A DNA stretch of 64,000 nt. Origin: a phage. The stretch lies in sequence record PX393109.1, one strand, 5' to 3'. Shown here piece after piece: positions 1,969 through 33,490 of this stretch (the first letter of the stretch is position 1; every line of letters begins with the position of its first letter). The notes under the pieces are model-generated. The model did not search any database, was not told the origin of the DNA, and saw nothing but the letters and a program-made list of their open reading frames with translations. The position numbers were made by a program, and so were the translations under genes.

Positions 1969-2480
1969 TAAAAATGAATAAAGCTGAAGTAGTGTTAGGA
2001 CTTGTACAGTCCGTGGACGAGGGTTACTCCTCGGTAAAATTCTGTCCAGACTCTGATGCCTGGATAGATAATCTTAAGCAGGTTATCTCTGAAGTAGCTG
2101 ATTATGATAAGCTTAACTTCGATACCGGTCACGATAACCACTGCACCCTTATGTATGCTCCGGGGACTGGTGCTCCGGATGAGGGAACTATTGCTGATCT
2201 GGTAGGTAGCAAACTTCATCTGAAGAATCCTCGCTATGAGATCTTCGGTGAGAATGCTAACTACCTGGTGCTGGCGTTCGATAGCGATCTGCTACAATCG
2301 TTTAACTATCGACTCCGTGCATCTGGGGAGGTACCGTCTGAGATCAGTGCGGAATACTCTCCTCACATAACTCTGGCCAAGGACGTAGAGAATCTGGATA
2401 TCTCTACTCTACCAGAATTACCGACCGATCTGTATTTAAACATCACTAGCGTAACTGCTGAGGAAATCAAGAATGACTAA
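1956..2480 (+). CDS. 2H phosphoesterase family protein (LigT / cyclic phosphodiesterase-like; Acb1-like candidate)
   Basis: Two H-x-T-x motifs (HCTLMY and HITLAK) about 76 residues apart in a 174-aa protein. Confidence 0.6.
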   Translation: MAMVIKMNKAEVVLGLVQSVDEGYSSVKFCPDSDAWIDNLKQVISEVADYDKLNFDTGHDNHCTLMYAPGTGAPDEGTIADLVGSKLHLKNPRYEIFGENANYLVLAFDSDLLQSFNYRLRASGEVPSEISAEYSPHITLAKDVENLDISTLPELPTDLYLNITSVTAEEIKND

Positions 2481-5751: not shown

Positions 5752-6048
5752 ATGCCTTCCGTAATCATTAAGTCTAAGCACCGAGCCCTGCTGCGTGCGG
5801 CTCAGTCCAAGAATCTGACGGAGATCACTAATATCGATCTCCATCCGAATACTCGCTACCATGACTACTTTATCTCCACGACGTTTATCGTGCTGGATAA
5901 AGATAAGGCGAAAGTAATCAAGAGCGTGGATAACCTCTTCGTCGAAGGCGAGATCATCCCTCTCCAGGATCTGTTCTCTAAACTGTCAGATGTGGAGCAG
6001 TCTACTCCTGCTACGAAGCATCCTGTCGACGTCCATATTTCCTTCTGA
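5752..6048 (+). CDS. hypothetical protein
   Basis: ATG with GGAG SD directly after upstream stop. Confidence 0.55.
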   Translation: MPSVIIKSKHRALLRAAQSKNLTEITNIDLHPNTRYHDYFISTTFIVLDKDKAKVIKSVDNLFVEGEIIPLQDLFSKLSDVEQSTPATKHPVDVHISF

Positions 6049-6055
6049 GGTAATT

Positions 6056-6262
6056 ATGGGATATAAGCTCTTTGAAACTAAGGAGCAGGAGGAGCGCTTC
6101 CTGAAGATGATTCGGGAAGGCTCCGCCATGAATACTCCTCGCAGTCCTGACGATCCTGGGTATAGAAGTGGGTGTAAGTCTATTACCCAGGAATTCAGTT
6201 CAACAGTCTACCGCTCGCAACATCCTTACGTGAGCGGAGGCAACTTAACTAAGGTCCGCTAA
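6056..6262 (+). CDS. hypothetical protein
   Basis: ATG (MGYKLF) with SD GAGG. Confidence 0.5.
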   Translation: MGYKLFETKEQEERFLKMIREGSAMNTPRSPDDPGYRSGCKSITQEFSSTVYRSQHPYVSGGNLTKVR

Positions 6263-6423
6263 TGGAATGGGTAAGAGCATTGATGGTCATGAGTAGGCTA
6301 AAGCCTATCTGCCCAGATGACATAATCCGGACTCGTGATGGATTGGTTATGTACCGTCAGGGTCACTTATCTGACCAGGATAAATCTGAAATCGGAATCT
6401 ATAGGTTCACTGATGGCTTTTAA
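6262..6423 (+). CDS. small hypothetical protein (53 aa)
   Basis: ATG overlaps upstream TAA (TAATG); below the ORF-track size cut-off. Confidence 0.3.
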   Translation: MEWVRALMVMSRLKPICPDDIIRTRDGLVMYRQGHLSDQDKSEIGIYRFTDGF

Positions 6424-6790
6424 ATTAATGGACAGAACCAAGATCCTGCATACCGCTGTAGAGAATGGTGGTTATGAATGCCGTACAGATAATAATTCTG
6501 TGAACATGGCAAACATCTCTACCTGCCTTAAGCTGGTGAGTGAAGGATTACTCTTCCACGGAACCACTGAACAGGATGCATATGACAAGCAGGTTAAGTG
6601 GTTCCATCCGACTCTTACTGGTATCTTAGTCGATACCCAGGAGAAACTGGCTTACCTCATTAATCGGGATAAGCCTCTATCTAAGAGGAAGTCTGAGATC
6701 CTGAATGCTAAACGTATTCTGGAAGATAAGCCTAACCTCGCATCTGTATTAAACGAAGATATCTTAAAATTAATTAGGGATTATAAATAA
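6413..6790 (+). CDS. hypothetical protein
   Basis: Start chosen at MAFKLMD inside track ORF 6335..6790. Confidence 0.45.
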   Translation: MAFKLMDRTKILHTAVENGGYECRTDNNSVNMANISTCLKLVSEGLLFHGTTEQDAYDKQVKWFHPTLTGILVDTQEKLAYLINRDKPLSKRKSEILNAKRILEDKPNLASVLNEDILKLIRDYK

Positions 6791-7032
6791 TGGCCATTCT
6801 GGTATTCGCCAAAGATCAACGGCAGTATAACGACTACATCCGTGCCAAGCACCTTACTCGCTCTGATGCTGTCTACGCCAGCTGTGTTAATAAGCTACGT
6901 GGTCTATTTCCTAAGCCTACTGAGATGCACTTGCTGCCTAATTGGGATCATAGTGGACCATCCCAGATGGCTATGGAAAAGGCTAAGACTCTCTTTCCAC
7001 AAGCAGTAGAGAAGTCTATCGAGCAGTGGTAA
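6790..7032 (+). CDS. hypothetical protein
   Basis: ORF; start overlaps upstream stop. Confidence 0.55.
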   Translation: MAILVFAKDQRQYNDYIRAKHLTRSDAVYASCVNKLRGLFPKPTEMHLLPNWDHSGPSQMAMEKAKTLFPQAVEKSIEQW

Positions 7033-7638: not shown

Positions 7639-7806
7639 ATGAAAATTCCGACTCTTGATCAATTACTCACCACAGCAATGCACACGGTGATCCGTCGTCT
7701 GGTCTGGAATATCCCTAAAAAGTATTTCTGGATGGTGGTGTTGGCCACCATCATTATCAGCGGATTCGCCACTTTTAGAACTCTGTTTTGGAGCCTGTTA
7801 GGATGA
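7639..7806 (+). CDS. small membrane protein (55 aa)
   Basis: ATG directly after upstream stop; hydrophobic segment WMVVLATIIISGFATF; below ORF-track cut-off. Confidence 0.35.
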   Translation: MKIPTLDQLLTTAMHTVIRRLVWNIPKKYFWMVVLATIIISGFATFRTLFWSLLG

Positions 7807-8561
7807 CCTTCCGTATTGATGCTGTTCGCCACCTTCGCCAAATAGCCGAGCTTAAGAAAGCCCATGGTGATTCCGTGTGGCATGTTAGGGCGTATGATCG
7901 TGCAGCCCGTTCCTTGGATGATTACCCGTATGGTGTAACTTCCCAGATGAACTTCACTACAATCCCATGGATAGGTGCTGGGATTGCTAGCGAGTTAGAA
8001 GCCTTCGCTAAGTATGGCACCATGACTCCTAAGTTCATTGAACTTATGTCTAAAGTCCCAGAAGGTCGTGTTGCTTACTCCACTGAGGTTAAGGATATCA
8101 TTGAGTCCTACCTAACGGAAGTGACCAAACTGAGTCTTGCCGAGGGTAGCTCTGGTCGTATCTCTACAGCTGGTTCGGTACGTCGTGGTAAGATGTGGAT
8201 TCGCGACGTAGACCTGCTTACTACCTTCCCTCCAGAAATAGTTCGCCATGCTTTCCGTCTTACCGGTATGGAGGAACTGTATGGTAAGGATAAAAAGATC
8301 CGATTCGTCCATACTAATACTGGTATGGAATTTGATATCAAGATCTGTCCAGAAGAATCCTGGAACGCGTGCTTACTTCACTCCACAGGATCAATGCAGA
8401 ATAACGTACACATGCGTTCGGTGGCTAAGCGTATGGGCATGACTCTTAATGAGTATGGCCTGTTTAATGTAGAGACCGGTGAACGTGTGGATACTAATTC
8501 CTCTGAGGAAGAACTGTATCAGCTGCTTGGTCTGGAATACGTAGAACCTGAGAATCGCTAA
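7803..8561 (+). CDS. DNA polymerase X family (Pol beta-like) nucleotidyltransferase
   Basis: GSVRRGK plus DVDLL nucleotidyltransferase motifs; HhH-like N-terminus; C-terminal LLHSTGS..N..MR..A...G..L.EYGLF thumb-like motif. Confidence 0.7.
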   Translation: MTFRIDAVRHLRQIAELKKAHGDSVWHVRAYDRAARSLDDYPYGVTSQMNFTTIPWIGAGIASELEAFAKYGTMTPKFIELMSKVPEGRVAYSTEVKDIIESYLTEVTKLSLAEGSSGRISTAGSVRRGKMWIRDVDLLTTFPPEIVRHAFRLTGMEELYGKDKKIRFVHTNTGMEFDIKICPEESWNACLLHSTGSMQNNVHMRSVAKRMGMTLNEYGLFNVETGERVDTNSSEEELYQLLGLEYVEPENR

Positions 8562-19111: not shown

Positions 19112-19422
19112 TGGAACAGTTCCGCATTGAATTAAAGATATGGAGCGCAGATATCGGGGAACGCCCTCCGGAGGGGGACGTTAACTGGAGAACTGCCTAC
19201 TGCATTTTAGGTCCTGTTAATGAAGAAGACTGGACTTTAGATAAAGATAAGGCTACTTTGCTTAGTTATGACCGTCTGGATGAGCTAAATCTGTTCGGTT
19301 TAGCTGCAAGATGCCGTAATTCCCTACGTTTATCTAACTGGGAACTAGGCTCCGTGAACATAATTAAGCTGGTAGATCCTGAGCTTATCCATATCAACAT
19401 AACGATAGATAAAGAGTATTAA
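19111..19422 (+). CDS. hypothetical protein
   Basis: ORF. Confidence 0.5.
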   Translation: MEQFRIELKIWSADIGERPPEGDVNWRTAYCILGPVNEEDWTLDKDKATLLSYDRLDELNLFGLAARCRNSLRLSNWELGSVNIIKLVDPELIHINITIDKEY

Positions 19423-19432
19423 GGAGCTTAAA

Positions 19433-19666
19433 ATGGATAAAGAGTTAAATGGTGCAGAAGAAGATGTTCTGTACAAATTATTCTGGTTCGGACCAGCAGC
19501 AGACGGAGACCTACCATCTAAATCTGGAGCATCTGGCTTGGTAGATAAAGGATTAGCTGCCTGGTTTAAGGGTAATAATCTCTGCCCTAAGATTTATGAT
19601 GACCGTAACATGTGTATGCTTACTTCCCTTGGGGTAGACTTAGCCAGAAATAAGTATACTAAATAA
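19433..19666 (+). CDS. hypothetical protein
   Basis: ORF with SD AAGGAG. Confidence 0.5.
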   Translation: MDKELNGAEEDVLYKLFWFGPAADGDLPSKSGASGLVDKGLAAWFKGNNLCPKIYDDRNMCMLTSLGVDLARNKYTK

Positions 19667-19668
19667 AA

Positions 19669-19704
19669 CCGCTCTTTTGTACGGTCAAAAGGCTGTTAAA
19701 CTGT
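19669..19704 (+). promoter_or_regulatory. Conserved motif A copy (candidate phage promoter)
   Basis: ccgctcttttgtacggtcaaaaggctgttaaactgt. Confidence 0.5.
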
Positions 19705-19714
19705 AGAGGTTATT

Positions 19715-19746
19715 CCTATAGAGCATCTGATGGTGCTCTATGTGAA
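19715..19746 (+). promoter_or_regulatory. Conserved hairpin motif B copy
   Basis: cctatagagca-tctgatgg-tgctctatgtgaa, followed by tandem taggagatat x2 and ATG (19779). Confidence 0.45.
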
Positions 19747-19778
19747 TAGTCTTAGGAGATATTAGGAGATATTAAGAT

Positions 19779-20138
19779 ATGTTTGAGAAATTAAAATCTA
19801 TATTTAAAACTGTTCCAGCAATTCCCTTACTGACTAAATCGGAAGAGCGACTAGCTTATGAGAATATGATCCGTACTGGGGACCCTACCGAATTTATCAG
19901 AATGTTGGATAATGACGAAATCCGGATGATTCGTAAAGATACATGGACTTGGGTAAGCGCTAATGGTGTAATCCATGTCTATAACGATATTTACGGTCCG
20001 GAAGTTAAGCTGGGAGGAGTAAGTGCGTTAATTGACTGTAATGGTGATGCTTACGGTCTATCTTACGAAGATGGTAAGAGAGTATATAACGCAATCTGGG
20101 ACTCCTGCGACCGCTCCAGGAGGATGGCTCATGTTTAA
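19779..20138 (+). CDS. hypothetical protein
   Basis: ORF. Confidence 0.55.
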   Translation: MFEKLKSIFKTVPAIPLLTKSEERLAYENMIRTGDPTEFIRMLDNDEIRMIRKDTWTWVSANGVIHVYNDIYGPEVKLGGVSALIDCNGDAYGLSYEDGKRVYNAIWDSCDRSRRMAHV

Positions 20139-20301
20139 GTTACTTATTATAAGTAGTATTGTTGCTCGGGATGCTCCATCAGTTCACTCGGTAATTGCGG
20201 AATTTGAGACTAAAGATCAAGCAGATCGTGCCTACGACAAAATGGTGGAATCTGCCAACCCTCAGTCCTGGGTATCTAACAAAGTAGTGAAACTTTACTA
20301 A
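20131..20301 (+). CDS. hypothetical small protein
   Basis: ATG after AGGAGG inside track ORF 20032..20301. Confidence 0.35.
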   Translation: MFKLLIISSIVARDAPSVHSVIAEFETKDQADRAYDKMVESANPQSWVSNKVVKLY

Positions 20302-20830
20302 TAGCTGAGTTCTATTAAGGCACCTAACGGCCTAATAGTTGCTCTTCCGTAAAACAGATTCGATAGTCTGGGAAGAGCAGCTATATACTCTCATTAAGTA
20401 ATGCGTATACATAGGGCACGATTAAGTTACGTCTCCGGCTATGGTTGCATTACGAATAGTTAGGTAGTGTCCCTATTCAGATTGTCCGGAACTGGATAGA
20501 GGATGAAGGTATTGTCGAGACCTTAGTGGGGACTGATGCGAACTACACTAAGGTTTATACCCTCTCAACATTCTTAGGGGCATCTACGTAGTATACCTTG
20601 CGTCACGCGTAGGGTGAGCGAGTTAAAGCCCAAAGTGGCTTTAGGGAGCGAATCCCAGGGGGAGGCTCGGGTGGGCAAGGTCAGAGTCTCCGGAGGAGCT
20701 TAGTCTCGTGTACGCGGCGGCTCTGCCAGCCGCCGCTACACTCCAATTGGTTAAATTAGATAAGGGGCCGGTAGTTCCTACGTCCATTAGTTTAGGAGTT
20801 ATTATTTGATTATGTTGAGGAACACTATTA
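20302..20830. other. Long non-coding region with GC-rich hairpins (candidate ncRNA or origin)
   Basis: About 530 bp without a convincing ORF; hairpins aaagcc/ggcttt, cggcggc/gccgccg, gctcttcc/ggaagagc. Confidence 0.35.
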
Positions 20831-21064
20831 ATGATCGTAGTTACTGAAGAGTATATTACCTCCCAGTCTAAGGCTGGTGGGAAGGCTGTTGGAAGAGTAG
20901 CAATAGCTAAACTAACCAATATGGGTTATGTTCCTAAGGACACTCCTAAGCCACCAGCACCATGGATATGGGAAAAGGAGAATGGCAGGATTATGGCTAT
21001 TACCCAGTATATGGGGCCATTCAGACTCAAGATCGAATACTTAGTAGATCTGGAAGATTCGTAG
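20831..21064 (+). CDS. hypothetical protein
   Basis: ORF after the non-coding region. Confidence 0.5.
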   Translation: MIVVTEEYITSQSKAGGKAVGRVAIAKLTNMGYVPKDTPKPPAPWIWEKENGRIMAITQYMGPFRLKIEYLVDLEDS

Positions 21065-21065
21065 G

Positions 21066-21101
21066 CCGCTCTTTTTAGGTGCTGAAAGGCTGTTAAGGTG
21101 T
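21066..21101 (+). promoter_or_regulatory. Conserved motif A copy (candidate phage promoter)
   Basis: ccgctctttttaggtgctgaaaggctgttaaggtgt, then AGGAGA and ATG. Confidence 0.5.
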
Positions 21102-21124
21102 CAGAACTACTGTTAGGAGAAATT

Positions 21125-21319
21125 ATGACTACTGAAGAAAAGATGATCCATATGTACAATCAGGTTCATGGTCCTATCTCTGCTTCCTGTTACTGGGAGT
21201 ATGATGAAGAGACTAACGAATTGATCTGCATGAAAGATGGCCATGAATGCTGGCGGACATCTAGAGAAGAGATTCTGTTTGACTATATCACTAAGGATAT
21301 GACAGATGCCACAGTTTAA
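21125..21319 (+). CDS. hypothetical protein
   Basis: ATG (MTTEEK) with SD AGGAGA. Confidence 0.5.
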   Translation: MTTEEKMIHMYNQVHGPISASCYWEYDEETNELICMKDGHECWRTSREEILFDYITKDMTDATV

Positions 21320-21455
21320 GTGCTCCTGGTGTAAACAACATAAGGATGAGACTCCTATCGATATGTCGGAGTATGGTCTCGAACCAGTATGTCTTACCTG
21401 TATGCAGGTAATCGAAGAGCAGGCTATGGGAGGAGGCTCCGATGATGACGAGGAG
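21306..21455 (+). CDS. small zinc-ribbon-like protein (49 aa)
   Basis: CSWC...CLTC pattern; below ORF-track cut-off; overlaps neighbours. Confidence 0.3.
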
Positions 21456-21663
21456 TAATCCCGTACAGATTAATGCTCTCTGTCTAGATGGTGTCTGGAT
21501 GGCGAGTTGGGAATATTACAAAGCTAAGGATGCTAAGAAAGAGGCTGAGTTTACTGGAGAGCCGAAAGTAATTAAGCGTAGTAAGGCTAACGAAGATTGC
21601 TACTGCGGATCTGGCAAGAAGGTAAAGAATTACCCATGTAAACAATACGTCCTGAAAAGATAA
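21442..21663 (+). CDS. hypothetical protein
   Basis: ORF. Confidence 0.45.
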   Translation: MMTRSNPVQINALCLDGVWMASWEYYKAKDAKKEAEFTGEPKVIKRSKANEDCYCGSGKKVKNYPCKQYVLKR

Positions 21664-21672
21664 GGAATAATT

Positions 21673-21927
21673 ATGTACTTTACTGATAATATGATCGTAG
21701 GACTGATGATTGCTTATGTCATCGGTGGGATCATCGTTTATCCGATTGCTGCTTATGTTACTGGCAGATTCCGTATTAAGCATGGTGGCTACACAGTATT
21801 GGCTACGGTATTTTGGCCGTTAATCCCTTTCGTGATCGTGGCAGTTATCATAACTAAACTGGCCGAAATAGCTTGCACGAAAGGGTTCCACTACCTCCGC
21901 GATCTCGGTGAGAAACATGCCAATTAA
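21673..21927 (+). CDS. small membrane protein (2 TM)
   Basis: Hydrophobic segments MIVGLMIAYVIGGIIVYPIAAYV and VLATVFWPLIPFVIVAVII. Confidence 0.55.
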   Translation: MYFTDNMIVGLMIAYVIGGIIVYPIAAYVTGRFRIKHGGYTVLATVFWPLIPFVIVAVIITKLAEIACTKGFHYLRDLGEKHAN

Positions 21928-22486
21928 TTTCAGTATGCAGAGTCTTGAAGACTTTGTACCAGAGCATGGTAAGAGCGTAGTAGTCTTCTACCACGAGCGA
22001 TTCTATTCCCGAGTAGAAATGCTACAGATGCAAGTAGAGTTCCACTACCAGATGATAGATGGCGATGGCTGCCCAGTTCCTCAGTGGGCATGCTATGATA
22101 ATCGTGACGACATACCGTTCGATAAGCCATTCATCTGGAAAGATAAGCAGGTTAAGTTCCTTACTCTGGACGACTGTATGGAAATACATAATCGTCATCC
22201 CAAGCACCACTATCGTTACTGGTGGGTTAAGGACTGGTTCCTAACTGGCGGAGGAAATAGCCAGTTAAATAGGGAACAGCTGGCGGAGATGTCGTTAGGG
22301 ATTATGAGTGCCGAACAGTTTAGTGCTGAGCTGGATAAGGGATGTGCTGATCTGGAAGCCAAGCGTATCTTACGTGAATTAACTCGTGAATCCCGTACTG
22401 GATATTGTGAGAAGCATGGCACTCGTCAGCTGGGTAAGGACCTATGTGATGTGTGCCGTATTGAACGTGCATTTATGGAGGGATGA
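21908..22486 (+). CDS. hypothetical protein
   Basis: 192-aa ORF directly upstream of the NADAR gene. Confidence 0.55.
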   Translation: MRNMPINFSMQSLEDFVPEHGKSVVVFYHERFYSRVEMLQMQVEFHYQMIDGDGCPVPQWACYDNRDDIPFDKPFIWKDKQVKFLTLDDCMEIHNRHPKHHYRYWWVKDWFLTGGGNSQLNREQLAEMSLGIMSAEQFSAELDKGCADLEAKRILRELTRESRTGYCEKHGTRQLGKDLCDVCRIERAFMEG

Positions 22487-23142
22487 TGCGGATCTGGACC
22501 GACAAGAACTCTATTCTGGAGTTTATCGGAGAGTACCGATTCCTATCTAACTTTTATCCTGTTCCTATTGAGGATAAGAATCCTTACGGGAACGAGACTC
22601 TTCCCTCCCTTACTTACCCTAGTGTGGAGCATGCCTATCAAGCATCTAAGTCTCCATCACTAGCCCATCGTCTTATCATAGCTAGACTTCATACTCCTGG
22701 TGAGGCCAAGAGATATGGACGTAAGCTGCCCATTACTGAATCGTGGAAGGAACAGAGAGTAGATGTGATGGAACACCTACTCCGGATTAAATTCGCGAAA
22801 GGTGGGGAGCTAGCTCAAAAATTGACCGATACTTGGCCTAAGGAGCTGGTCGAAGGAAATACCCACGGAGATTCCTTCTGGGGTATGACTCGTGAGGAGT
22901 ACAAGTCCGTCCTCACTGGTATTAATATGCTCGGACGATTACTGATGAAACTTCGGGAGGAGTTAGTTATGGAACAAATGACCAAGGAGACAGGATCGTT
23001 TGCGGAGTGGCATAAACTGCTGCACCAATACGCTCAGTCTCGTGGCGGTAGCGCTGCTGATGCGGAAGCCTGGCGGGATGATTACGATGAAGGTAAGACC
23101 CCTAAGCAGGCCTACGACGATGAGTGGGGCGAAGAAGACTAA
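22483..23142 (+). CDS. NADAR (YbiA-like, DUF1768) domain protein
   Basis: FLSNFYP ... EHAYQASK ... FAKGGELAQKL ... GDSFWGM matches the NADAR signature. Confidence 0.75.
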   Translation: MMRIWTDKNSILEFIGEYRFLSNFYPVPIEDKNPYGNETLPSLTYPSVEHAYQASKSPSLAHRLIIARLHTPGEAKRYGRKLPITESWKEQRVDVMEHLLRIKFAKGGELAQKLTDTWPKELVEGNTHGDSFWGMTREEYKSVLTGINMLGRLLMKLREELVMEQMTKETGSFAEWHKLLHQYAQSRGGSAADAEAWRDDYDEGKTPKQAYDDEWGEED

Positions 23143-23150
23143 CCTATCTT

Positions 23151-23180
23151 AGCGCTCTTTAGGGAGCGCTATTTTTATTT
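23151..23180 (+). terminator. Rho-independent terminator
   Basis: agcgctc-tttagg-gagcgct followed by atttttattt. Confidence 0.75.
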
Positions 23181-23196
23181 AATGTTGGGAGTAATT

Positions 23197-23436
23197 ATGG
23201 AACAACCTATCCAAGCAGTAACTAATGCGGTTGGGAGCATGCAGATCGTGGGTTATGATACCTATGAGCAAGTAGCTCAATCAGTTAAACTCGATCCTCG
23301 CAAGAAGCGTCGTGGTCATCGTCGAGCAGCTAAGAGTCTGCTTAGTAATGGTGGGGTCTTCAATAACTACTCTGCACCAGGAACTACATTCTGGTGGGTC
23401 GCACAATGGCATCTTAAGAAGGCACGTAATGGCTGA
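23197..23436 (+). CDS. hypothetical protein
   Basis: ATG (MEQPIQ) with SD GGGAG. Confidence 0.5.
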   Translation: MEQPIQAVTNAVGSMQIVGYDTYEQVAQSVKLDPRKKRRGHRRAAKSLLSNGGVFNNYSAPGTTFWWVAQWHLKKARNG

Positions 23437-23782
23437 AGATACTGGGATTCATGACGGACGCTGGGAAGATCGATATAACTCAGTACGACAGGAATTAGAC
23501 ACTACTAAGGCTAATCTGAGTAAGGCTAGAGTAGAGAATGCTGAAAACCGAGCTATGCATCATCGTATTATTCAGATGGCTATTGATGATGGCTGGACTG
23601 GTGATCATAATAGTAATGTTGAGGATGCAGTAAAATTCCTATCGGGTAGAGAGCGTAAAGTAACTACCCCTAAAATTCATTACACAGATCATATCACAAT
23701 AGGTAAGGCATCTCCAGTATATGATGCCGTTGAAGTAGATACATTATTAACCAGTCTAGGGTATACTGTGGATAAGGATTAA
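23429..23782 (+). CDS. hypothetical protein
   Basis: Start at MAEDTG inside track ORF 23312..23782. Confidence 0.45.
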   Translation: MAEDTGIHDGRWEDRYNSVRQELDTTKANLSKARVENAENRAMHHRIIQMAIDDGWTGDHNSNVEDAVKFLSGRERKVTTPKIHYTDHITIGKASPVYDAVEVDTLLTSLGYTVDKD

Positions 23783-23784
23783 TT

Positions 23785-23820
23785 CCGCCGTTTCTTACCC
23801 TCGAAAGGCTGTTAAATTGT
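23785..23820 (+). promoter_or_regulatory. Conserved motif A copy (candidate phage promoter; variant CCGCCGTTT)
   Basis: ccgccgtttcttaccctcgaaaggctgttaaattgt, then AAGGA and ATG (23847). Confidence 0.45.
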
Positions 23821-23846
23821 TGCACCTCAACTGATAAGGATAACCG

Positions 23847-24560
23847 ATGTCTACTAAGATGATGCCACACCATCTGGCTCCGAATAAACTGTTTAACCGA
23901 TTCCTGTCATATCACGACTCCTACCACTGCGCAATTGACATCGAGACCGAGTATCTCGATTTTAAAGAGCCTGGGGTAGTTCTATCTGTAGGTATGGTGA
24001 CGGTTGGTCCTGATCACTACTCCCACGTCTACTTCACTATTGATCGAGAAGAGTCGCTGGCTCTGGGTATGAAGTCTGACCCTAACGTAGTTGAATGGCT
24101 CAACACTCTCCCGAAACCCGTCCGTGATGCTGCATATGCTAATCCAGTATCTGTTGACGAAGCTCTGGATATCATCGAAGAGTACGTAGCTAAGGTACTA
24201 CAGGATCCTGGTTGCCAGATGTTGAACTTCATCGGTAACGCACCAGAGTTCGACCAGGGATTCCTGGATTGGTACTTTAAGGCTAAAGGACGTAAGACCC
24301 CGTTCCTACACTGGATGAATCGAGATTACCGCACTCTGGCTAGTCTGCAGCTGATCTCATTCGATGATCGTCGCATGATTAAAGAAGAACTGAGTAGCCA
24401 GCACGAGTCTATGTCTGATCACCATGCATTGTTCGATGCGATGCTGGAAGCTAAGACTTGGGTTCGCACCATCAATCGTGTAAAAGAGTTACAGGATCTG
24501 GAGCACGAGGTGAATACCATGATTGCTATGCAGGGTAACTCTGTGGAAGATGGAGAGTAA
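23847..24560 (+). CDS. DEDD-type 3'-5' exonuclease (DnaQ-like)
   Basis: AIDIETE (Exo I) and HHALFDA (Exo III, DEDDh) motifs. Confidence 0.65.
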   Translation: MSTKMMPHHLAPNKLFNRFLSYHDSYHCAIDIETEYLDFKEPGVVLSVGMVTVGPDHYSHVYFTIDREESLALGMKSDPNVVEWLNTLPKPVRDAAYANPVSVDEALDIIEEYVAKVLQDPGCQMLNFIGNAPEFDQGFLDWYFKAKGRKTPFLHWMNRDYRTLASLQLISFDDRRMIKEELSSQHESMSDHHALFDAMLEAKTWVRTINRVKELQDLEHEVNTMIAMQGNSVEDGE

Positions 24561-24873
24561 GCTTTGTCGGGTGGTTAATATACGTACCAATCCTAACTAC
24601 GATTTATATGTTGGGAGAGGTACTATATTCGGGAATAAGTGGAGCCATAAAGATTTACCTAACGCTATTAACGTAGGTTCCCGAACATTAGCCATCGCGA
24701 AATACAGACTATGGTTCCACCAGCAAGTAAAAGATGGCCACATAAGCATCTCCTACTTACGGACTCTTAAGGGTAAGACTTTAGGGTGCTCCTGCTTACC
24801 GTTACCATGTCATGCTCAAGTTATAGCTGACTTCGTTAATTCATTACCTGACGAAGATTCCGCTCTTTCGTAG
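24550..24873 (+). CDS. DUF4326-like protein
   Basis: VNIRTNPNYDLYVGRG...GNKWS resembles the DUF4326 N-terminal signature; start overlaps exonuclease end. Confidence 0.45.
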   Translation: MESKLCRVVNIRTNPNYDLYVGRGTIFGNKWSHKDLPNAINVGSRTLAIAKYRLWFHQQVKDGHISISYLRTLKGKTLGCSCLPLPCHAQVIADFVNSLPDEDSALS

Positions 24874-24895
24874 CCTCCAAAGGCTGTTAAACTGT
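24860..24895 (+). promoter_or_regulatory. Conserved motif A copy (candidate phage promoter)
   Basis: ccgctctttcgtagcctccaaaggctgttaaactgt; the 5' half overlaps the stop of the upstream gene. Confidence 0.5.
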
Positions 24896-24911
24896 TGGAA
24901 AGGAAATCTCT

Positions 24912-25136
24912 ATGCAATCACGTCGTATTGGTTTGTTAAGCGGTATCGGTATGGTTCTGGCTGGATTAGGTCATATGTGGCCCACCCCAGCAGTGTCTGC
25001 TAAAGGCTATGACGGATTCCGTCGCGCCTGTACCAAGGTAAGCTGCCCTAAGACTACTACAGCATCTGCATTAAAGCGTGCGGCTAAGAAGGCTAAAGGC
25101 CGTAAGGTTAATAAGCAACGTCACAAGGGTAAATAA
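24912..25136 (+). CDS. small membrane protein with basic tail
   Basis: N-terminal hydrophobic segment; Lys/Arg-rich C-terminus. Confidence 0.5.
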   Translation: MQSRRIGLLSGIGMVLAGLGHMWPTPAVSAKGYDGFRRACTKVSCPKTTTASALKRAAKKAKGRKVNKQRHKGK

Positions 25137-25516
25137 TGTCTCATATGACCCGAGAAGAAATCGTATTGATGGTGGCTAAGGTGTGTCACGAAGCTAATCG
25201 TGCATACTGCCATTCTATCGGAGACTTCACCCAATTAAGCTGGGAAGCAACATCCGATGAAATAAAACAGTCGGCTATTGATGGAGCGTATAACTGCTTA
25301 CACAATAACCGTATCAGCCCAGAAGAGTCCCATGAATTCTGGGTTAAAACTAAAAAGGAGCAGGGCTGGAAGTATGGAGAAATCAAAGATCTCGCAGCTA
25401 AGACGCACCCGTGTATGGTTCCATATTCACGGTTGCCGGAAGAGCATCGAGTCAAAGATCACCTCTTCACCAGCATCTGCGCAGCATTCATTAAACAGTA
25501 CAAAAGGGCATCATGA
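25136..25516 (+). CDS. RyR-domain-like protein
   Basis: [20 protein letters not shown]...[20 protein letters not shown] resembles the bacterial/phage RyR-domain consensus. Confidence 0.45.
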
Positions 25517-25983
25517 TGACCGTAGTTCAAGTAAAGAAAACTATTAACTGGGACGACTCTCTGGAGTTACCGAAATACGCTAAAGCTGGTGATGCTGGTC
25601 TTGATCTTCGTGCGATGATTAAGACTGACGAAATCGATAAAATCGCTGTAAATCCTGGCGAAACTATCCTGGTCCCTACCGGTCTAGCGATCAACATCGG
25701 CGATCCGAACATCGCTTCTGTGATTCTTCCCCGCAGCGGCCTCGGCCATAAAAATGGCATCGTACTGGGTAACTTGGTTGGTCTTATCGACTCCGGCTAT
25801 CAAGGAGAACTGATGGTGTCTGTGTGGAACCGTAGTAACGAATCTTTCGTTATTAACCACGGCGACCGTATCGCTCAAATGGTGTTTCTTCCCGTTATCC
25901 ATCCAGAGCTCCAGCTTGTGGATAAATTCTCTGATGTTTCTGAACGTGGCGACGGTGGGTTTGGCCATTCCGGGATTAAGTAA
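25513..25983 (+). CDS. dut: dUTP diphosphatase (dUTPase)
   Basis: [44 protein letters not shown] and DRIAQMVF motifs. Confidence 0.9.
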
Positions 25984-26013
25984 TCCTGGGGTAGTTAGAC
26001 TACGGTAATTACT

Positions 26014-26039
26014 ATTGACCTCTTTGCGGAGAGGTCAAT
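26014..26039 (+). terminator. Hairpin / putative terminator after dut
   Basis: attgacctct-ttgcgg-agaggtcaat (10-bp stem), followed by a T-rich tract. Confidence 0.5.
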
Positions 26040-26065
26040 GTTATTCTACCATAGAACCGAGGAAT

Positions 26066-26269
26066 ATGATGGATATTGAGCAACTAACTAAGGATCTTAA
26101 TCGTAACCAGATTACGGTTATTCGTTCGGAGCACTTAGCTCCCAAGACTATGATCGTGTCTGATGATATCTGGGGCACATTCAAGAATAATAATAATAAT
26201 AATAATAATAATGCTACTGTAGAAGCTACAGATGAAGAATCTGTTAAGAACATGCTGGAGCATCCGTAA
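26066..26269 (+). CDS. hypothetical protein with poly-Asn tract
   Basis: Start MMDIEQ with SD GAGGA; contains the (AAT)9 repeat. Confidence 0.5.
   Translation: MMDIEQLTKDLNRNQITVIRSEHLAPKTMIVSDDIWGTFKNNNNNNNNNATVEATDEESVKNMLEHP
26185..26211 (+). repeat. (AAT)9 trinucleotide microsatellite
   Basis: aataataataataataataataataat, in frame, encoding N9. Confidence 0.9.
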
Positions 26270-26892
26270 TGATCCTTGGTAAATCTTATATTGAGCAGGC
26301 AATTACTCAAGGATTATGGACCTATCACAGTTATCTGGACAATCAGGAACCACGAATCGGACAGAATAGTGTAGATGTACGCTTAGCTCCGTTCTTCCTG
26401 GTTCCTCAAAAGATGCCTGATGGCCATGTAGTAGATCCCTATAAACCATGTACTCTTCCGGAGTATCGCGAGGTAGAGGCACTATACTACGATCTTAAAC
26501 CTGGGGAGTTCATCTTAGGCTCAGCATCTGAACGTATCGACTGTACTACCATGTTGCCTGAGAAGTGGTTCGAGCATTATGACCCACGATACCGTAACAG
26601 CACTGTAGACCGTGGTGTGGCATTCTGTCAGCATTACGACGGTCGCAGCACTATGGGTCGTCTGGGAATACTGAGCCATGTCAGTGCAGGTTTCGGGGAC
26701 TTTGGATTCAAGGGAGCATTTACTCTAGAGATTGTTAACCTAAGCCCTAACACTATCCGACTGCGTTCTAACATGCGCATCGGTCAGATTTACTTTACTG
26801 AGGTTGCTGGTGGTGGCTACGACCTTTACAAAGGTTACGACCAGACTGACTTTAAACCAGTCGCACCAATCATAGGTCGCGATCGTTTCTAA
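26269..26892 (+). CDS. dCTP deaminase-like protein (dUTPase-fold)
   Basis: VDVRL and DGRSTMGRLGI...LEIVN...IRL..NMRIGQIYF align with Dcd motifs. Confidence 0.6.
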   Translation: MILGKSYIEQAITQGLWTYHSYLDNQEPRIGQNSVDVRLAPFFLVPQKMPDGHVVDPYKPCTLPEYREVEALYYDLKPGEFILGSASERIDCTTMLPEKWFEHYDPRYRNSTVDRGVAFCQHYDGRSTMGRLGILSHVSAGFGDFGFKGAFTLEIVNLSPNTIRLRSNMRIGQIYFTEVAGGGYDLYKGYDQTDFKPVAPIIGRDRF

Positions 26893-26904
26893 TTAGGAGA
26901 AATT

Positions 26905-30445: not shown

Positions 30446-33400
30446 TTAACTAAAGTATGCGCGAACGTTCTTAACGAACGGACGGTTAACTGGGTTGGAT
30501 AGAGACAGGGTGATACGGATGCGGGTATTAGCCACATTTACTCCTGACAGTTTGTAAGGTACAGTGTACCACCCATCTCCCAGAGCGGTTCCGGTACTCC
30601 CTGACAAGGCTACCCATTCGCTATCCTTCTGGTACTGAACGGTTACGCTAGCACCAGATGGTACATACTGATCCAGGATGACGTTAAGAGTTACCGGAGT
30701 AATGTTACCGTTAGGGATACTGAACTGACGCTGGGTATATACCCCAGGAGTATCAGTAGTACCAGAACGGAAGATGACGCCACCGAAGACCTTCGGAGAT
30801 ACGGTAGGATCACCGGTATTAAACTCAGCCATCAGACTGAAAGTACCAGAGAAGTTCTCAGTATACGTTTCAGAGTTAACGTTGAGGTTAATGTTATCAG
30901 TACCGTTAGTGAGATAGAATCTCACGGAGGTATTTGCCGGAGTCTCAATATCAGCAGTAAGCGAAAGACTGTTGGTATTGCTAGCTACCGTTACAGAACC
31001 CAAGTTAACAGTGCGAGTAGAACTATAGTCAGCAGCATGGAGACGATACACCAAGTCTTCATCCTGAACTGGAGACCAGGTAGATTCGTTCGCAGAAGTC
31101 AGAAGAACACCCTGAGCTGGCTGATTCACTACATACTGCTGCTTATCGGGATCATATCCGTTTATCTTAGCTGTGGCTACCTTACCCTGATAGTTAGCCG
31201 TAGCAACTATGATGGCATACTCAGTACCACCAGTCACTGTTACTGGATAACGAAGATTGATCTTGTTCCACCCCAGTACACACTTATTAGCCGGAACTTC
31301 ACCGAAGCCATAAAGCTGAGTGGAGTTAGGGATACCTACCAAAGTAGGGACCAGTTTAATCTGGAGTGTGTTAGTAGGCAGCTCAGTCAGATAGATAGAT
31401 ACTGCGTTAATATCACGAGTAGCCTGGATAGTGAAGGTCTGAGCCACTGGATCGTAACCCCACGGAACAGCACCACCAGTCCAGTTCTGACCGTAGTCGA
31501 CTTTACCAGAGTTGTAGATGGTTACGGTACCGCGAGTAATAGCCTTAGTGGTCTTACCAGTAGCAACATACTGATACGTACCGTTAACCAAACCACCAGA
31601 CAGCATATGAGCATACTGTACAGCACCGTTATCATCCGCAGTCAAGGTAACCACTGGCAGGTTACGGAAAGTAAGATCAATCTGTTCGTTGGCAGCATAC
31701 CCAGATAGCTTAATCGTGATCGTAGTATCTACCGGCAGAAAGCCACCATGGAAGTACGACCAGAAGCTACGAGTATCGATCTTAGCTGGTGAAACAGAGA
31801 TCATCGCCTGAGGTACCTGACCAGACCCAGCATACGGGTTGATGCGGGTGTCCTTAGTACGGAATTCCTGAGACTGAATTACGGTATCAGTGAATGATAA
31901 CATAATACCATCAGGAGCCAGACTGGACTGCCGTGAGAAAGATGCTCCGATGAACAGCTGACCATCATCGATAATGGCGTTGTTGGTTAATCCAGCATCA
32001 CGCATGTTACCGTTAAGCAGGGAGTCAACTACTACACCTTTCTTAGTCGTAGTCGGATCGGTAGAGCGAGTTTCATCACGGAGCGAAAGCTGGGCGATGT
32101 TGTACTGCATGTCGCTTACCAGAGACATCAGATCTTTTAGCTCATTATAAGTAACCACTTCGATGCGGTCATTGTTAATGACCGGATCTTGACCCTTAGT
32201 CAGACGAACAGTTGCGATAGACAGCAACGTAGCTGAAGTACCTGGTAACTGAGCGTTTGCCAAGATTGCCGGAATACCCTTAGTGATCTGAACCGCACCA
32301 GAGGCATCGATAGATACACGGTCATAGCGAGACAGGAAGTAAGAGTAGGTTACGTAGAACGTAGACCCAGATACCAGAGCATCACTGGTGGAAATAGTTA
32401 TGGAGGTATCGTTCCAGGTCGGGATGAACTGATCAATGTACTGATACGTAACCTGGTAAGTAGAACCAGGAGATGGTTCGTTACCAGTAGGTGACCAGTC
32501 TACAGAGTCCCCGTTCTGTACATAGTCACTACCTTTAACATAGACAGTACCACCCTGCTGTACAGAAATAATCTGCAGAACAGGAGTATCCGGAAGTAAG
32601 TCAGACGAACCCGTTGCGGAACCATGAGTCACCGTACGAGTCACCTGCTTAGTACCGGATACAGCAGTTACCTGATCAATTACAGAGTAGCGCAGTTGAT
32701 AGGTGTAAGTACCTGCTGTAAACACGTATGGCTCTGAAGCTACGTTACCAGTATCGTTGATAGGGTCCAGACGCACGGTACTTTCATAGGCGAACAGTGC
32801 TTCGTTTCCGAGTACACGAGCCTTGCCCGCAGACATGTTCAACATAATCTGCTGGGTAGAGCCATCGATGCCTGCATAGGACAGAGTTAATCCGTCCAGA
32901 ACATAGTTACCGTGAGTATCAGAATCGTAGCGACCAAGAAGACCAGAGAACTGGTCGAGATCATTACGAGACTTGGTGGTCTTAACCAGTACGCCATTCT
33001 TGAAATAGAATACTGGGAAGAAGGTATCTCCTTCTGGAACATCATCGGCCAACAGCCAAGTAGTTACCTTCTGGAGACGGTCAGCACCAGCTGAACCATA
33101 GCTCGGAGAGTTCTGATACTGCATGAGGAGCTCAGGATCTTCGAGATAGGTGATTACCTTATCAGAGATAGATACACCTAAAACAGCCTCACCAGCAGTA
33201 GGAAACGATGCATCCGTAACAGCAGGTACATTCATAGCCATACCGGCATAGATTAGCGTACCTTCGGTTATAGAGATTACACCGTCTCCAAGAGCGGAAA
33301 TATCCGCCCCATCAGTAATGGCACCATCACCGACCAAGAAGCCGGACAGTGTAGAGACGTTATTGAGCTGCTGATCCTGAATTTCGTTTAGCTCCGAGCT

Positions 33401-33490
33401 CTGGAGCGGCCTGTCCGCGATAAACAGATGCTTGGCGTAGTTCTTCTTAGCCGCAAATCTGTTAAAGTAATCAGACGGTAAAGTTGCCAT
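30446..33490 (-). CDS. large tail fibre / tailspike protein (1014 aa)
   Basis: Ser/Thr/Gly-rich beta-type composition; sits in the receptor-binding-protein locus. Confidence 0.6.
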   Translation of the reverse strand: MATLPSDYFNRFAAKKNYAKHLFIADRPLQSSELNEIQDQQLNNVSTLSGFLVGDGAITDGADISALGDGVISITEGTLIYAGMAMNVPAVTDASFPTAGEAVLGVSISDKVITYLEDPELLMQYQNSPSYGSAGADRLQKVTTWLLADDVPEGDTFFPVFYFKNGVLVKTTKSRNDLDQFSGLLGRYDSDTHGNYVLDGLTLSYAGIDGSTQQIMLNMSAGKARVLGNEALFAYESTVRLDPINDTGNVASEPYVFTAGTYTYQLRYSVIDQVTAVSGTKQVTRTVTHGSATGSSDLLPDTPVLQIISVQQGGTVYVKGSDYVQNGDSVDWSPTGNEPSPGSTYQVTYQYIDQFIPTWNDTSITISTSDALVSGSTFYVTYSYFLSRYDRVSIDASGAVQITKGIPAILANAQLPGTSATLLSIATVRLTKGQDPVINNDRIEVVTYNELKDLMSLVSDMQYNIAQLSLRDETRSTDPTTTKKGVVVDSLLNGNMRDAGLTNNAIIDDGQLFIGASFSRQSSLAPDGIMLSFTDTVIQSQEFRTKDTRINPYAGSGQVPQAMISVSPAKIDTRSFWSYFHGGFLPVDTTITIKLSGYAANEQIDLTFRNLPVVTLTADDNGAVQYAHMLSGGLVNGTYQYVATGKTTKAITRGTVTIYNSGKVDYGQNWTGGAVPWGYDPVAQTFTIQATRDINAVSIYLTELPTNTLQIKLVPTLVGIPNSTQLYGFGEVPANKCVLGWNKINLRYPVTVTGGTEYAIIVATANYQGKVATAKINGYDPDKQQYVVNQPAQGVLLTSANESTWSPVQDEDLVYRLHAADYSSTRTVNLGSVTVASNTNSLSLTADIETPANTSVRFYLTNGTDNINLNVNSETYTENFSGTFSLMAEFNTGDPTVSPKVFGGVIFRSGTTDTPGVYTQRQFSIPNGNITPVTLNVILDQYVPSGASVTVQYQKDSEWVALSGSTGTALGDGWYTVPYKLSGVNVANTRIRITLSLSNPVNRPFVKNVRAYFS

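What the first reader, a model, noticed from the sequence alone, without database searches (positions are those of the whole stretch)
21908..24873. Candidate counter-defence island: NADAR, DEDD exonuclease, DUF4326-like
A NADAR (YbiA-like) protein (22483-23142) has a clear signature; NADAR enzymes can remove ADP-ribose from guanine and neutralise DarT-type toxins. It is flanked by an uncharacterised 192-aa protein upstream and, downstream, by a DEDDh exonuclease and a DUF4326-like protein translationally coupled to each other. Two motif-A copies and a strong terminator partition the block. The set looks like an accessory anti-defence cassette rather than core replication.
Basis: partly seen in the sequence, partly recalled or inferred. 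Interest (0 to 1): 0.7.

Follow-up and report, generated by a model that had tools for sequence, protein, structure and literature searches.

The report
Phage NADAR anti-DarT gene with neighbours
This stretch of a lytic E. coli phage carries one credible anti-defence gene, an enzyme predicted to strip toxic ADP-ribose off phage DNA, of a kind already described in other phages; the exonuclease and DUF4326 genes beside it show no evidence of being its partners.

Summary
The window is a lytic E. coli phage, 96% identical to vB_EcoM_IME392. At the stated coordinates it encodes:
- a 189-aa orphan protein
- a NADAR protein (Pfam E 8e-27)
- an intrinsic terminator
- a complete DEDDh exonuclease (Rv2179c-like)
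- an overlapping DUF4326 gene (T4 NrdA.1 family)
- two copies of a conserved 38-nt promoter-like motif

The NADAR keeps every mutagenesis-tested catalytic residue. It is 44% identical to the NADAR of phage Bas32, taken here to be the AdfN shown to neutralise DarT1. It is therefore a new member of the known AdfN counter-defence class, fused here to a 48-aa C-terminal module. In metagenomic relatives the slot between NADAR and exonuclease gains Lar-like anti-restriction genes, which fits an accessory region.

The three-gene cassette idea is not supported. T5-like phages keep the same exonuclease family whether or not they carry NADAR. DUF4326 sits beside nucleotide-metabolism or early genes in five other phages and was absent from eight other NADAR loci. 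Here it lies next to dUTPase and dCTP-deaminase-like genes of a predicted thymidine-hypermodifying phage.

Ordinary to moderately interesting.

The parts
21066..21103 (+). Motif A copy (promoter-like) that opens the transcription unit ending at the terminator after NADAR
   Evidence: CCGCTCTTT-N10-AAAGGCTGTTAA. The copy is conserved at the same place in EP_H11 and IME392.
21673..21927 (+). 84-aa hydrophobic (membrane-like) ORF. Its end overlaps the start of the 189-aa ORF by 11 nt.
   Evidence: In EP_H11 a 4-bp deletion fuses it in frame to the 189-aa ORF.
21917..22486 (+). 189-aa lineage-specific protein of unknown function, translationally coupled to NADAR. It has an N-terminal conserved domain of about 140 aa and a C-terminal CxxH...CxxC element.
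22483..23142 (+). NADAR (YbiA-class) ADP-ribosyl-nucleobase glycohydrolase, of the AdfN-like orphan antitoxin type. The NADAR domain spans aa 1-165.
   Evidence: Pfam 7.9e-27. Residues E49, K56, K76, R80, W88, R92, E124, D130 and W133 align with the ADPr-contact and catalytic residues of PnNADAR (residues from PMC11543638). It is 44% identical to Bas32 bas32_0066.
22996..23139 (+). C-terminal 48-aa acidic/aromatic module fused to the NADAR (FAEWH...AEAWRDDYDEGKTPKQAYDDEWGEED)
   Evidence: It matches phrog_519 at 1.6e-19. It is 44% identical to the C-terminus of Kuttervirus Se-B gp155, an otherwise unrelated small protein. It is absent from the NADAR of relative L003.
23150..23181 (+). Intrinsic terminator (9-bp GC-rich stem, loop of 4, T-run)
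   Evidence: dG -14.1 kcal/mol, z = -3.3.
23197..23436 (+). 79-aa basic ORF (KKRRGHRRAAK), conserved in relatives
   Evidence: It is preceded by a GGGAG ribosome-binding site. No family was assigned.
23429..23782 (+). 117-aa ORF lying in the variable slot between NADAR and exonuclease
   Evidence: In relative L003 its C-terminal module of about 35 aa is fused to the 189-aa protein homologue. Relatives L003 and L004 carry extra genes here, including Lar_restr_allev at 1.1e-9.
23785..23822 (+). Motif A copy upstream of the exonuclease-DUF4326 unit
   Evidence: It is conserved in L001-L004 at the same place.
23847..24560 (+). DEDDh 3'-5' exonuclease of the Rv2179c-like family
   Evidence: Pfam 9.8e-19. 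RNase T structures match at 1e-4. The catalytic set is D31/E33/D136/H192/D197. The gene is conserved in all relatives. The same family occurs in T5-like phages.
24550..24873 (+). DUF4326 protein (T4 NrdA.1 family), start overlapping the exonuclease stop by 11 nt
24860..24897 (+). Motif A copy that opens the next unit (74-aa ORF, RyR-domain protein, dUTPase, dCTP-deaminase-like)

Best explanation
The block is a stretch of the early/middle (+ strand) gene arm of a lytic E. coli myovirus of the IME392/EP_H11 group. It is made of separate transcription units, not one cassette.

**Unit 1 (motif A at 21066 to the terminator at 23150).** It ends with a 189-aa orphan protein co-translated with a YbiA-class NADAR.
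- Inferred mechanism, by homology to AdfN and DarG1: the NADAR binds ADP-ribose attached to guanine N2 of phage DNA by DarT1-type toxins, possibly also to cytosine. It hydrolyses the N-glycosidic bond using E49/K56/E124. This releases free ADP-ribose and restores a replicable template, so the phage escapes DarTG1 abortive infection.
- The fused 48-aa C-terminal module and the co-translated 189-aa protein are lineage-specific additions of unknown role. They may act in targeting or partner binding.

**Variable slot.** A slot follows that in relatives holds Lar-like anti-restriction genes.

**Unit 2 (motif A at 23785).** It encodes a DEDDh 3'-5' exonuclease overlapped by DUF4326.
- I read these as nucleic-acid end-processing or nucleotide-salvage enzymes of the neighbouring nucleotide-metabolism cluster (dUTPase, dCTP-deaminase-like). 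That cluster feeds thymidine hypermodification in this phage group.
- I do not read them as partners of the NADAR.

**Shown versus inferred.** Shown: domain identities, catalytic residues, gene overlaps, terminator, motif conservation, comparative gene content. Inferred: all activities and the DarT1 target.
For: **NADAR identity and likely activity**
- Family hit and matches to solved NADAR structures.
- All three positions whose mutation abolishes G-ADPr hydrolysis are kept, plus six further ADPr-contact residues (against PMC11543638).
- It is 44% identical over 154 aa (E 5e-31) to the single NADAR ORF found in the scanned half of Bas32. AdfN-Bas32 neutralises DarT1 and rescues three phages on DarTG1 hosts.
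- All NADAR classes tested hydrolyse G-ADPr in vitro, and YbiA-class enzymes also hydrolyse C-ADPr.

**DNA-directed, accessory context**
- The closest phage NADARs sit in DNA replication or repair modules: next to PolA in Tedan and RXM, next to a RadD-like helicase in LPKP33, next to RNase H in T5-likes and Achelous.
- NADAR is a presence/absence polymorphism in T5-likes. T5 itself lacks it while the flanking RNase H and exonuclease remain.
- A Lar-like gene occupies the slot in L003 and L004.
- An Acb1-like gene elsewhere in the same arm shows that the arm carries counter-defence genes.

**Separate units**
- Terminator and motif A copies.

**DUF4326 context**
- It lies between td and nrdA in T4-likes. 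It lies near dUTPase in XD2, near dNMP kinase in KIT04, and near dUTPase/dCTP deaminase in YerA41.
- This phage group is predicted to hypermodify thymidine (PMC12686479; bioRxiv 2025.03.26.645540).
Against: - No activity was measured.
- In-vitro-active NADARs do not all protect cells. E. coli YbiA and the T4 NADAR failed to rescue DarT1 toxicity on their own.
- The protein scores 73.5 bits against the NCBIfam riboflavin-intermediate N-glycosidase model, whose cut-off is 73.7. A metabolite-repair role is therefore not excluded.
- NADAR is present in all five contigs of this phage group, so within the group it is not variable. However, IME392 carries a stop at codon 156.
- The roles assigned to the exonuclease and DUF4326 rest on context only.
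- Iyer et al. report repeated fusions of DUF4326 to NADAR, Macro and SLOG domains in other viruses. That argues for some link to ADP-ribose chemistry.
Confidence: 0.55

Rival explanations
1. One functional ADP-ribose-processing cassette. NADAR removes ADP-ribose from DNA. DUF4326 dephosphorylates or otherwise processes the released ADP-ribose or a ribose-phosphate remnant. The DEDDh exonuclease trims ADP-ribosylated or blocked 3' ends at stalled forks.
For: - Iyer et al. 2022 report DUF4326 fused to NADAR, Macro and SLOG domains and predict that it processes phosphates on ADP-ribose products.
- NADAR and a DEDDh exonuclease lie within 1.5 kb of each other in three phage groups: this one, T5-likes and Citromicrobium RXM.
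- The exonuclease-DUF4326 overlap is conserved in relatives.
Against: - A terminator and a separate promoter-like motif divide the NADAR from the exonuclease and DUF4326.
- T5-likes keep the exonuclease without NADAR.
- No DUF4326 was found within 4 kb of the NADAR in eight other loci.
- No DEDDh gene was found next to DUF4326 in four other DUF4326 loci.
- NADAR hydrolysis leaves an intact base, so no further repair step is required (PMC11543638).
Confidence: 0.15
2. The NADAR does not act on DNA. It either destroys soluble ADP-ribose-derived immune signals (products of TIR, Thoeris or Sir2-type systems), or it acts as a YbiA-type N-glycosidase on reactive riboflavin-pathway intermediates.
For: [quoted passage not shown]
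- The protein is YbiA-class, with Glu at position 124, and it nearly reaches the TIGR02464 cut-off.
Against: - The tested phage NADARs, including the related Bas32 one, act on DarT1-modified DNA.
- The closest homologues sit in replication and repair modules.
- No riboflavin genes are present in the window.
Confidence: 0.15
3. The genes are housekeeping parts of the phage's own DNA hypermodification and nucleotide pathway. They would be N-glycosidase, exonuclease and phosphatase-like steps that supply or proofread modified thymidine, not counter-defence.
For: - The block abuts dUTPase and dCTP-deaminase-like genes.
- The phage group is predicted to hypermodify T.
- The block is collinear in all relatives.
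- YerA41 also has a DUF4326 near its dUTPase and dCTP deaminase genes.
Against: - YerA41 has no orthologue of this NADAR, of the exonuclease or of the 189-aa protein.
- The same NADAR clade occurs in many phages not known to modify thymidine, and it is dispensable in T5-likes.
Confidence: 0.1

Closest known systems
AdfN (anti-DarT factor NADAR), especially AdfN-Bas32 of T5-like phages (Johannesman et al. 2025, PMC11825919)
   Same: It is an orphan phage NADAR without a DarT partner and keeps all catalytic residues. It is 44% identical to the Bas32 NADAR ORF. It is a single free-standing enzyme in the early/replication gene region.
   Different: It carries a 13-residue insertion in the N-terminal part and a fused 48-aa C-terminal module (phrog_519 type). 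It is co-translated with a 189-aa orphan protein. It sits in a phage predicted to have hypermodified thymidine. Its activity is untested.
E. coli YbiA and the YbiA subfamily of NADAR (2b3w; riboflavin-intermediate N-glycosidase, G/C-ADPr hydrolase in vitro)
   Same: It has Glu at the subfamily-defining position (E124), a phmmer match of 2e-14, and a near-threshold TIGR02464 score.
   Different: It is phage-encoded, it is not in the LexA-controlled dinG-ybiB operon, and it has an extra C-terminal module.
DarG1, the NADAR antitoxin of DarTG1
   Same: Same superfamily and same predicted chemistry (guanine-N2 ADP-ribose hydrolysis).
   Different: There is no adjacent DarT1. The class-defining residue is Glu, not Asp. 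The basic N-terminal DNA-binding extension described for DarG1 was not examined here.
T5-family exonuclease of the Rv2179c-like family (bas32_0070, phiP4 gp133); Mycobacterium Rv2179c; RNase T
   Same: It has the DEDDh catalytic set and the family motifs GN(A/G)PEFD and H-x4-D, and it lies downstream of RNase H and NADAR in T5-likes.
   Different: BLASTP aligns only 102 aa of the T5-like protein, at 22% identity (E 0.01). Here it is translationally coupled to DUF4326, which was not seen elsewhere.
T4 NrdA.1 / DUF4326 (assigned by Iyer et al. 2022 to the rhodanese-phosphatase superfamily; from my own recollection, Burroughs & Aravind 2023 group it in a RapZ-C/DUF488/DUF4326 clade)
   Same: It is a stand-alone protein of about 100 aa with the invariant G-C-x-C-x-P-x2-C-H motif, placed beside nucleotide-metabolism genes.
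   Different: It overlaps a DEDDh exonuclease gene. No function has been shown for any member of the family.

Membership tests
NADAR superfamily (PF08719) | Sequence match above the curated threshold, and homology to solved NADAR structures | tested here: met
   94.9 bits against a cut-off of 35.1. 2b3w matches at 2.2e-14 and 8bau at 1.7e-10.
NADAR superfamily (PF08719) | Catalytic and ADPr-contact residues (PnNADAR E43, K50, E125, plus K75, R79, W89, R93, D130, W133) | tested here: met
   E49, K56, E124, K76, R80, W88, R92, D130 and W133 align. Y84 and D86 are not conserved, as is also the case in YbiA and other phage NADARs.
YbiA subfamily of NADAR | Glu at the position of PnNADAR E125 (Asp in DarG1/BC4488, His in T4-type) | tested here: met
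   E124. The rule comes from PMC11543638.
YbiA subfamily of NADAR | NCBIfam TIGR02464 equivalog-domain cut-off | tested here: inconclusive
   73.5 bits against a cut-off of 73.7.
AdfN (phage orphan anti-DarT1 NADAR) | Phage-encoded NADAR with no adjacent DarT/ART toxin | tested here: met
   No ART was found in the block by Pfam, PADLOC or NCBIfam. No homologue of the YerA41 ART occurs in the window.
AdfN (phage orphan anti-DarT1 NADAR) | Homology to an experimentally validated AdfN | tested here: met
   44% identity, E 5e-31, to bas32_0066. That ORF is the only NADAR hit in Bas32 positions 50-100 kb. Its identity with AdfN-Bas32 is inferred from PMC11825919. The other half of the Bas32 genome was not scanned.
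AdfN (phage orphan anti-DarT1 NADAR) | Removes ADP-ribose from guanine in DNA and restores phage growth on DarTG1 hosts | not testable with these tools
   This needs enzyme and plaque assays.
DarTG1 toxin-antitoxin system | Adjacent DarT1 ADP-ribosyltransferase gene | tested here: not met
   The neighbouring ORFs have no ART or DarT domain.
DEDDh exonuclease (Rv2179c-like, PF16473) | Family match above threshold and the five catalytic residues D-E-D-D-h | tested here: met
   68.2 bits against a cut-off of 27. D31, E33, D136, H192 and D197 were placed by alignment to RNase T.
DUF4326 (PF14216) | Family match above threshold and the conserved G-C-x-C-x-P-x2-C-H motif | tested here: met
   63.7 bits against a cut-off of 25. 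The invariant columns are listed.
Rhodanese-phosphatase superfamily (claimed for DUF4326) | Fold similarity to solved members | tested here: inconclusive
Phage anti-defence island (variable accessory hot-spot) | Gene content varies between close relatives and includes known anti-defence genes | tested here: inconclusive
   The window, IME392 and EP_H11 are collinear over 19419-26876. Relatives whose 189-aa protein is 74-78% identical (L003, L004) insert 2-4 genes between NADAR and exonuclease, including a Lar-like gene. The NADAR, exonuclease and DUF4326 themselves are constant.

The most novel reading that the evidence does not exclude
The 189-aa orphan protein, the tailed NADAR and the exonuclease-DUF4326 pair together form a dedicated pathway that clears ADP-ribose and other bulky adducts from hypermodified phage DNA.
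- The 189-aa protein or the C-terminal module would recruit the NADAR to replication forks.
- DUF4326 would be a cysteine-dependent enzyme that processes ribose-phosphate or blocked DNA ends for the exonuclease. Its predicted fold weakly resembles RapZ-C and NADAR.

This would give the first function for the very widespread DUF4326/NrdA.1 family.
Probability: 0.08. Interest if true: 0.7.

Novelty: new member of a known kind. Interest (0 to 1): 0.35.

Why it matters
- If the NADAR is active against DarT1, it extends the AdfN counter-defence class to a fourth, poorly studied E. coli phage lineage, one predicted to carry hypermodified thymidine.
- One idea (my inference, not tested here): thymidine hypermodification could blunt thymine-specific DarT2, leaving guanine-specific DarT1 as the threat that needs an enzyme.
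- The tail fusion and the co-translated orphan protein may explain why some phage NADARs need extra phage factors, as reported for AdfN-T4.
- The negative result also matters. DUF4326 and the DEDDh exonuclease should not be annotated as anti-defence on the basis of proximity.

Tried and rejected
- **Single-sequence word-index search with DUF4326** found only two close relatives. A profile query was needed.
It was repeated with database hits.
- **PADLOC** gave no meaningful defence-system match for any block protein.
- **Rfam and tRNA scans of the window** found nothing.
- **Motif A as an RNA structure** was rejected. Its folding energies are no better than shuffled sequence.
- **Orthologues in YerA41,** a related predicted T-hypermodified phage. 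Only the dCTP-deaminase-like gene and a weak DUF4326 match were found; there is no orthologous NADAR, exonuclease or 189-aa protein.
- **Papers not available.** The AdfN supplementary tables are not held. The Burroughs & Aravind 2023 paper is not held, so its content is cited from memory only. Its existence is confirmed by a reference list.


Full report
**What the window is.** The region 21500-25500 is 96.2% identical to Escherichia phage vB_EcoM_IME392 (116 kb) and 92.4% identical to EP_H11 (111 kb). These are the only close relatives among 50,697 phage records. The + strand arm (1-28 kb) encodes:
- an RNA polymerase beta' fragment, RNase H, a Pol X and an NAD-dependent ligase
- a DUF7217/glycosyltransferase block
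- dUTPase and a dCTP-deaminase-like protein

Two papers place IME392 and EP_H11 among phages with an SP-15/YerA41/RP13-like DNA polymerase and predict hypermodified thymidine (PMC12686479; bioRxiv 2025.03.26.645540).

**Check of the observation.**
- The NADAR ORF (22483-23142) hits Pfam NADAR at 7.9e-27. The next large ORF hits Rv2179c-like at 9.8e-19, and the one after hits DUF4326 at 2.5e-17.
- The upstream ORF most likely starts at ATG 21917 (189 aa), as annotated in IME392. Its stop overlaps the NADAR start (ATGA).
- DUF4326 starts at ATG 24550, 11 nt before the exonuclease stop.
- The terminator at 23150-23171 has a 9-bp stem, dG -14.1 kcal/mol and z -3.3, followed by a T-run.
- Motif A is a bipartite element, CCGCyyTTT-N10-AAAGGCTGTTAA-N2-TGT. 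It has seven copies, all on the + strand and all between genes. The 19-nt core gave 6 matches where 0.04 are expected.
- The two copies in the block are conserved at the same positions in relatives whose 189-aa protein is down to 74% identical. The motif has no stable fold. I read it as a phage promoter, but that is an inference.
- The block therefore splits into units: motif A (21066) ... 189-aa ORF-NADAR-terminator; two small ORFs; motif A-exonuclease/DUF4326; motif A-74-aa ORF/RyR/dUTPase.

**The NADAR.**
- Schuller et al. give the ADPr-contact residues of the Phytophthora NADAR and show that the equivalents of E43, K50 and E125 are needed for guanine de-ADP-ribosylation (PMC11543638).
- In my alignment the window protein has E49, K56, K76, R80, W88, R92, E124, D130 and W133 at those positions. 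The Glu at 124 puts it in the YbiA class rather than the DarG1 (Asp) or T4 (His) classes.
- NCBIfam's riboflavin-intermediate N-glycosidase model scores 73.5 bits, 0.2 below its cut-off.
- Johannesman et al. showed that phage NADARs (AdfN) remove DarT1-made ADP-ribose from phage DNA. They also showed that AdfN-Bas32 (from a T5-like phage) and AdfN-Bas60 neutralise DarT1 without other phage factors (PMC11825919).
- I retrieved Bas32 (IrisVonRoten, MZ501075). Only positions 50-100 kb of it were scanned, and they hold a single NADAR ORF, bas32_0066. That ORF is 44% identical to the window protein over 154 aa, E 5e-31.
- The nearest phage NADARs outside the group are in Ruegeria phage Tedan (49%) and Citromicrobium phage RXM (46%).

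**Genomic context of this NADAR clade.** It sits in replication and repair modules, which fits a DNA substrate:
- directly next to DNA polymerase A in Tedan and RXM
- overlapping a RadD-like helicase gene in Klebsiella phage LPKP33
- next to RNase H in T5-likes and Vibrio phage Achelous

In T5-likes the gene is accessory. A 3.2-kb Bas32 probe spanning RNase H to the exonuclease is fully covered in some phages. In many others, including T5, it is covered in two or three pieces with a missing stretch that fits the size of the NADAR gene. The annotations in those records list RNase H and the exonuclease but no NADAR-type gene.

**Lineage-specific additions.**
- Residues 172-219 form a 48-aa acidic/aromatic module. 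It matches phrog_519 (1.6e-19). It is 44% identical to the C-terminus of an unrelated 149-aa Kuttervirus protein.
- The metagenomic relative L003 has the NADAR without this tail.
- The co-translated 189-aa protein belongs to a tiny family, with 10 clusters among 1.8 billion representatives. Homologues at about 36% identity occur in Phapecoctavirus-like phages, where they are not next to a NADAR.

**Variability.**
- The window, IME392 and EP_H11 are collinear from 19419 to 26876.
- Two metagenomic contigs whose 189-aa protein is 74-78% identical show change between the NADAR and the exonuclease. L004 adds a Lar-like gene and a 97-aa gene. L003 replaces the 117-aa gene with 189-aa, 100-aa and Lar-like genes, and it inserts a 101-aa gene before the NADAR.
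- The Lar-like protein hits Pfam Lar_restr_allev at 1.1e-9.
- So there is a variable slot that accepts anti-restriction genes, flanked by constant genes.
- IME392 has a stop codon at NADAR codon 156, within the last helix of the domain. This could be decay or a sequencing error.

**The exonuclease and DUF4326.**
- The exonuclease has the full DEDDh set, D31, E33, D136, H192 and D197.
- The same Pfam family occurs 1.2 kb downstream of the NADAR in Bas32 and phiP4. It stays in T5-likes that lack NADAR, so the proximity is not evidence of coupling.
- DUF4326 is the T4 NrdA.1 family. tblastn finds it in 1829 phage records, and a profile search finds more than 7600 proteins, the best 120 all stand-alone and about 100 aa long.
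- In the five other phages I looked at, DUF4326 lies:
  - between td and nrdA (RB14)
  - near dUTPase (XD2)
  - near dNMP kinase and an NMN transporter (KIT04)
  - as the second early gene (N4-like Pollock)
  - near dUTPase, dCTP deaminase and an ART (YerA41)
- It was absent within 4 kb of the NADAR in eight other loci, and no DEDDh gene adjoined it in four other DUF4326 loci.
- The exonuclease-DUF4326 overlap is, however, conserved in every relative of this phage.
- Iyer et al. assign DUF4326 to the rhodanese-phosphatase superfamily. They note fusions to NADAR, Macro and SLOG and predict action on phosphates of ADP-ribose products (PMC9503650; PMC7824862).
- From my own recollection, not checked because the paper is not held, Burroughs & Aravind 2023 define a RapZ-C/DUF488/DUF4326 clade and predict DNA-end processing. 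The RapZ-C hit would agree with that.

**Verdict.**
- The NADAR is a credible AdfN-type counter-defence enzyme and a new member of a known kind.
- The counter-defence island label holds only loosely. The arm does carry accessory anti-defence genes: Lar-like genes in relatives, and an Acb1-like gene at 1956-2480.
- The exonuclease and DUF4326 are better read as end-processing or nucleotide-salvage enzymes of the adjacent nucleotide cluster.
- No activity was measured, and all mechanisms are inferred.

Noticed in passing
window 1956-2480 (+): A 174-aa ORF matches Pfam Acb1 (anti-CBASS 2H phosphodiesterase) at E 1.4e-6, 28.5 bits, just above the cut-off of 27. It is a second candidate counter-defence gene in the same gene arm, 20 kb upstream of the block.
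   Followed up: no
window 2805, 8563, 14599, 19668, 21066, 23785, 24860 (+): Seven copies of motif A (CCGCyyTTT-N10-AAAGGCTGTTAA-N2-TGT) lie on the + strand only and always between genes. They are probably a phage-specific promoter class. In the copy at 2829 the core is also one arm of a palindrome (GGCTGTTAAC...GTTAACAGCC) followed by a T-run, so it looks like a terminator as well.
   Followed up: partly
window 76-1164, 7788-8561, 8626-10569, 11204-14597 (+): The arm encodes an RNA polymerase beta' fragment (Rpb1 domain 2), a Pol X, an NAD-dependent DNA ligase, and a DUF7217/MptE-like/glycosyltransferase block. These fit the published prediction of hypermodified thymidine in this phage group.
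   Followed up: no
L002 (IME392) 5912-6570, equivalent to window 22483-23142: The IME392 NADAR gene has an in-frame stop at codon 156, in the last helix of the domain. It is otherwise 98.6% identical to the window gene. This may be natural decay of an accessory gene or a sequencing error. AdfN of RB69 is truncated in a similar way.
   Followed up: no
L001 (EP_H11) 6174-6983, equivalent to window 21673-22486: A 4-bp deletion in EP_H11 fuses the 84-aa membrane ORF in frame to the 189-aa ORF, giving a 269-aa protein.
   Followed up: no
L003 1333-2025 and window 23429-23782: In relative L003 the homologue of the 189-aa protein carries, at its C-terminus, the last 35 or so residues of the window's 117-aa protein (HxTDHITxGKxSPVYDA...LGY). 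This domain shuffling links the two proteins.
   Followed up: no
window 22996-23139 and L011 (Kuttervirus Se-B) 2276-2725: The 48-aa C-terminal module of the NADAR recurs at the end of otherwise unrelated small proteins of Kuttervirus phages, at 44% identity in the Se-B gp155 comparison. It is a mobile module of unknown function.
   Followed up: partly
window 25136-25516 (+): A 126-aa protein consists of a ryanodine-receptor (RyR) domain (Pfam 5.8e-13). It is conserved in all relatives, immediately upstream of dUTPase.
   Followed up: no
window 26876-26893 and 19412-19419: There are indel hot-spots relative to relatives. EP_H11 carries an extra 216-aa gene after the dCTP-deaminase-like gene. 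EP_H11 and IME392 both carry about 580 bp of extra sequence at 19412.
   Followed up: no
L016 (YerA41) 32046-32420 and 33146-33466: The related phage YerA41 encodes an annotated mono-ADP-ribosylating toxin about 700 bp upstream of its DUF4326 gene (Pfam 6.5e-11). Both lie downstream of its dUTPase/dCTP-deaminase gene. No homologue of that toxin is present in the window.
   Followed up: partly
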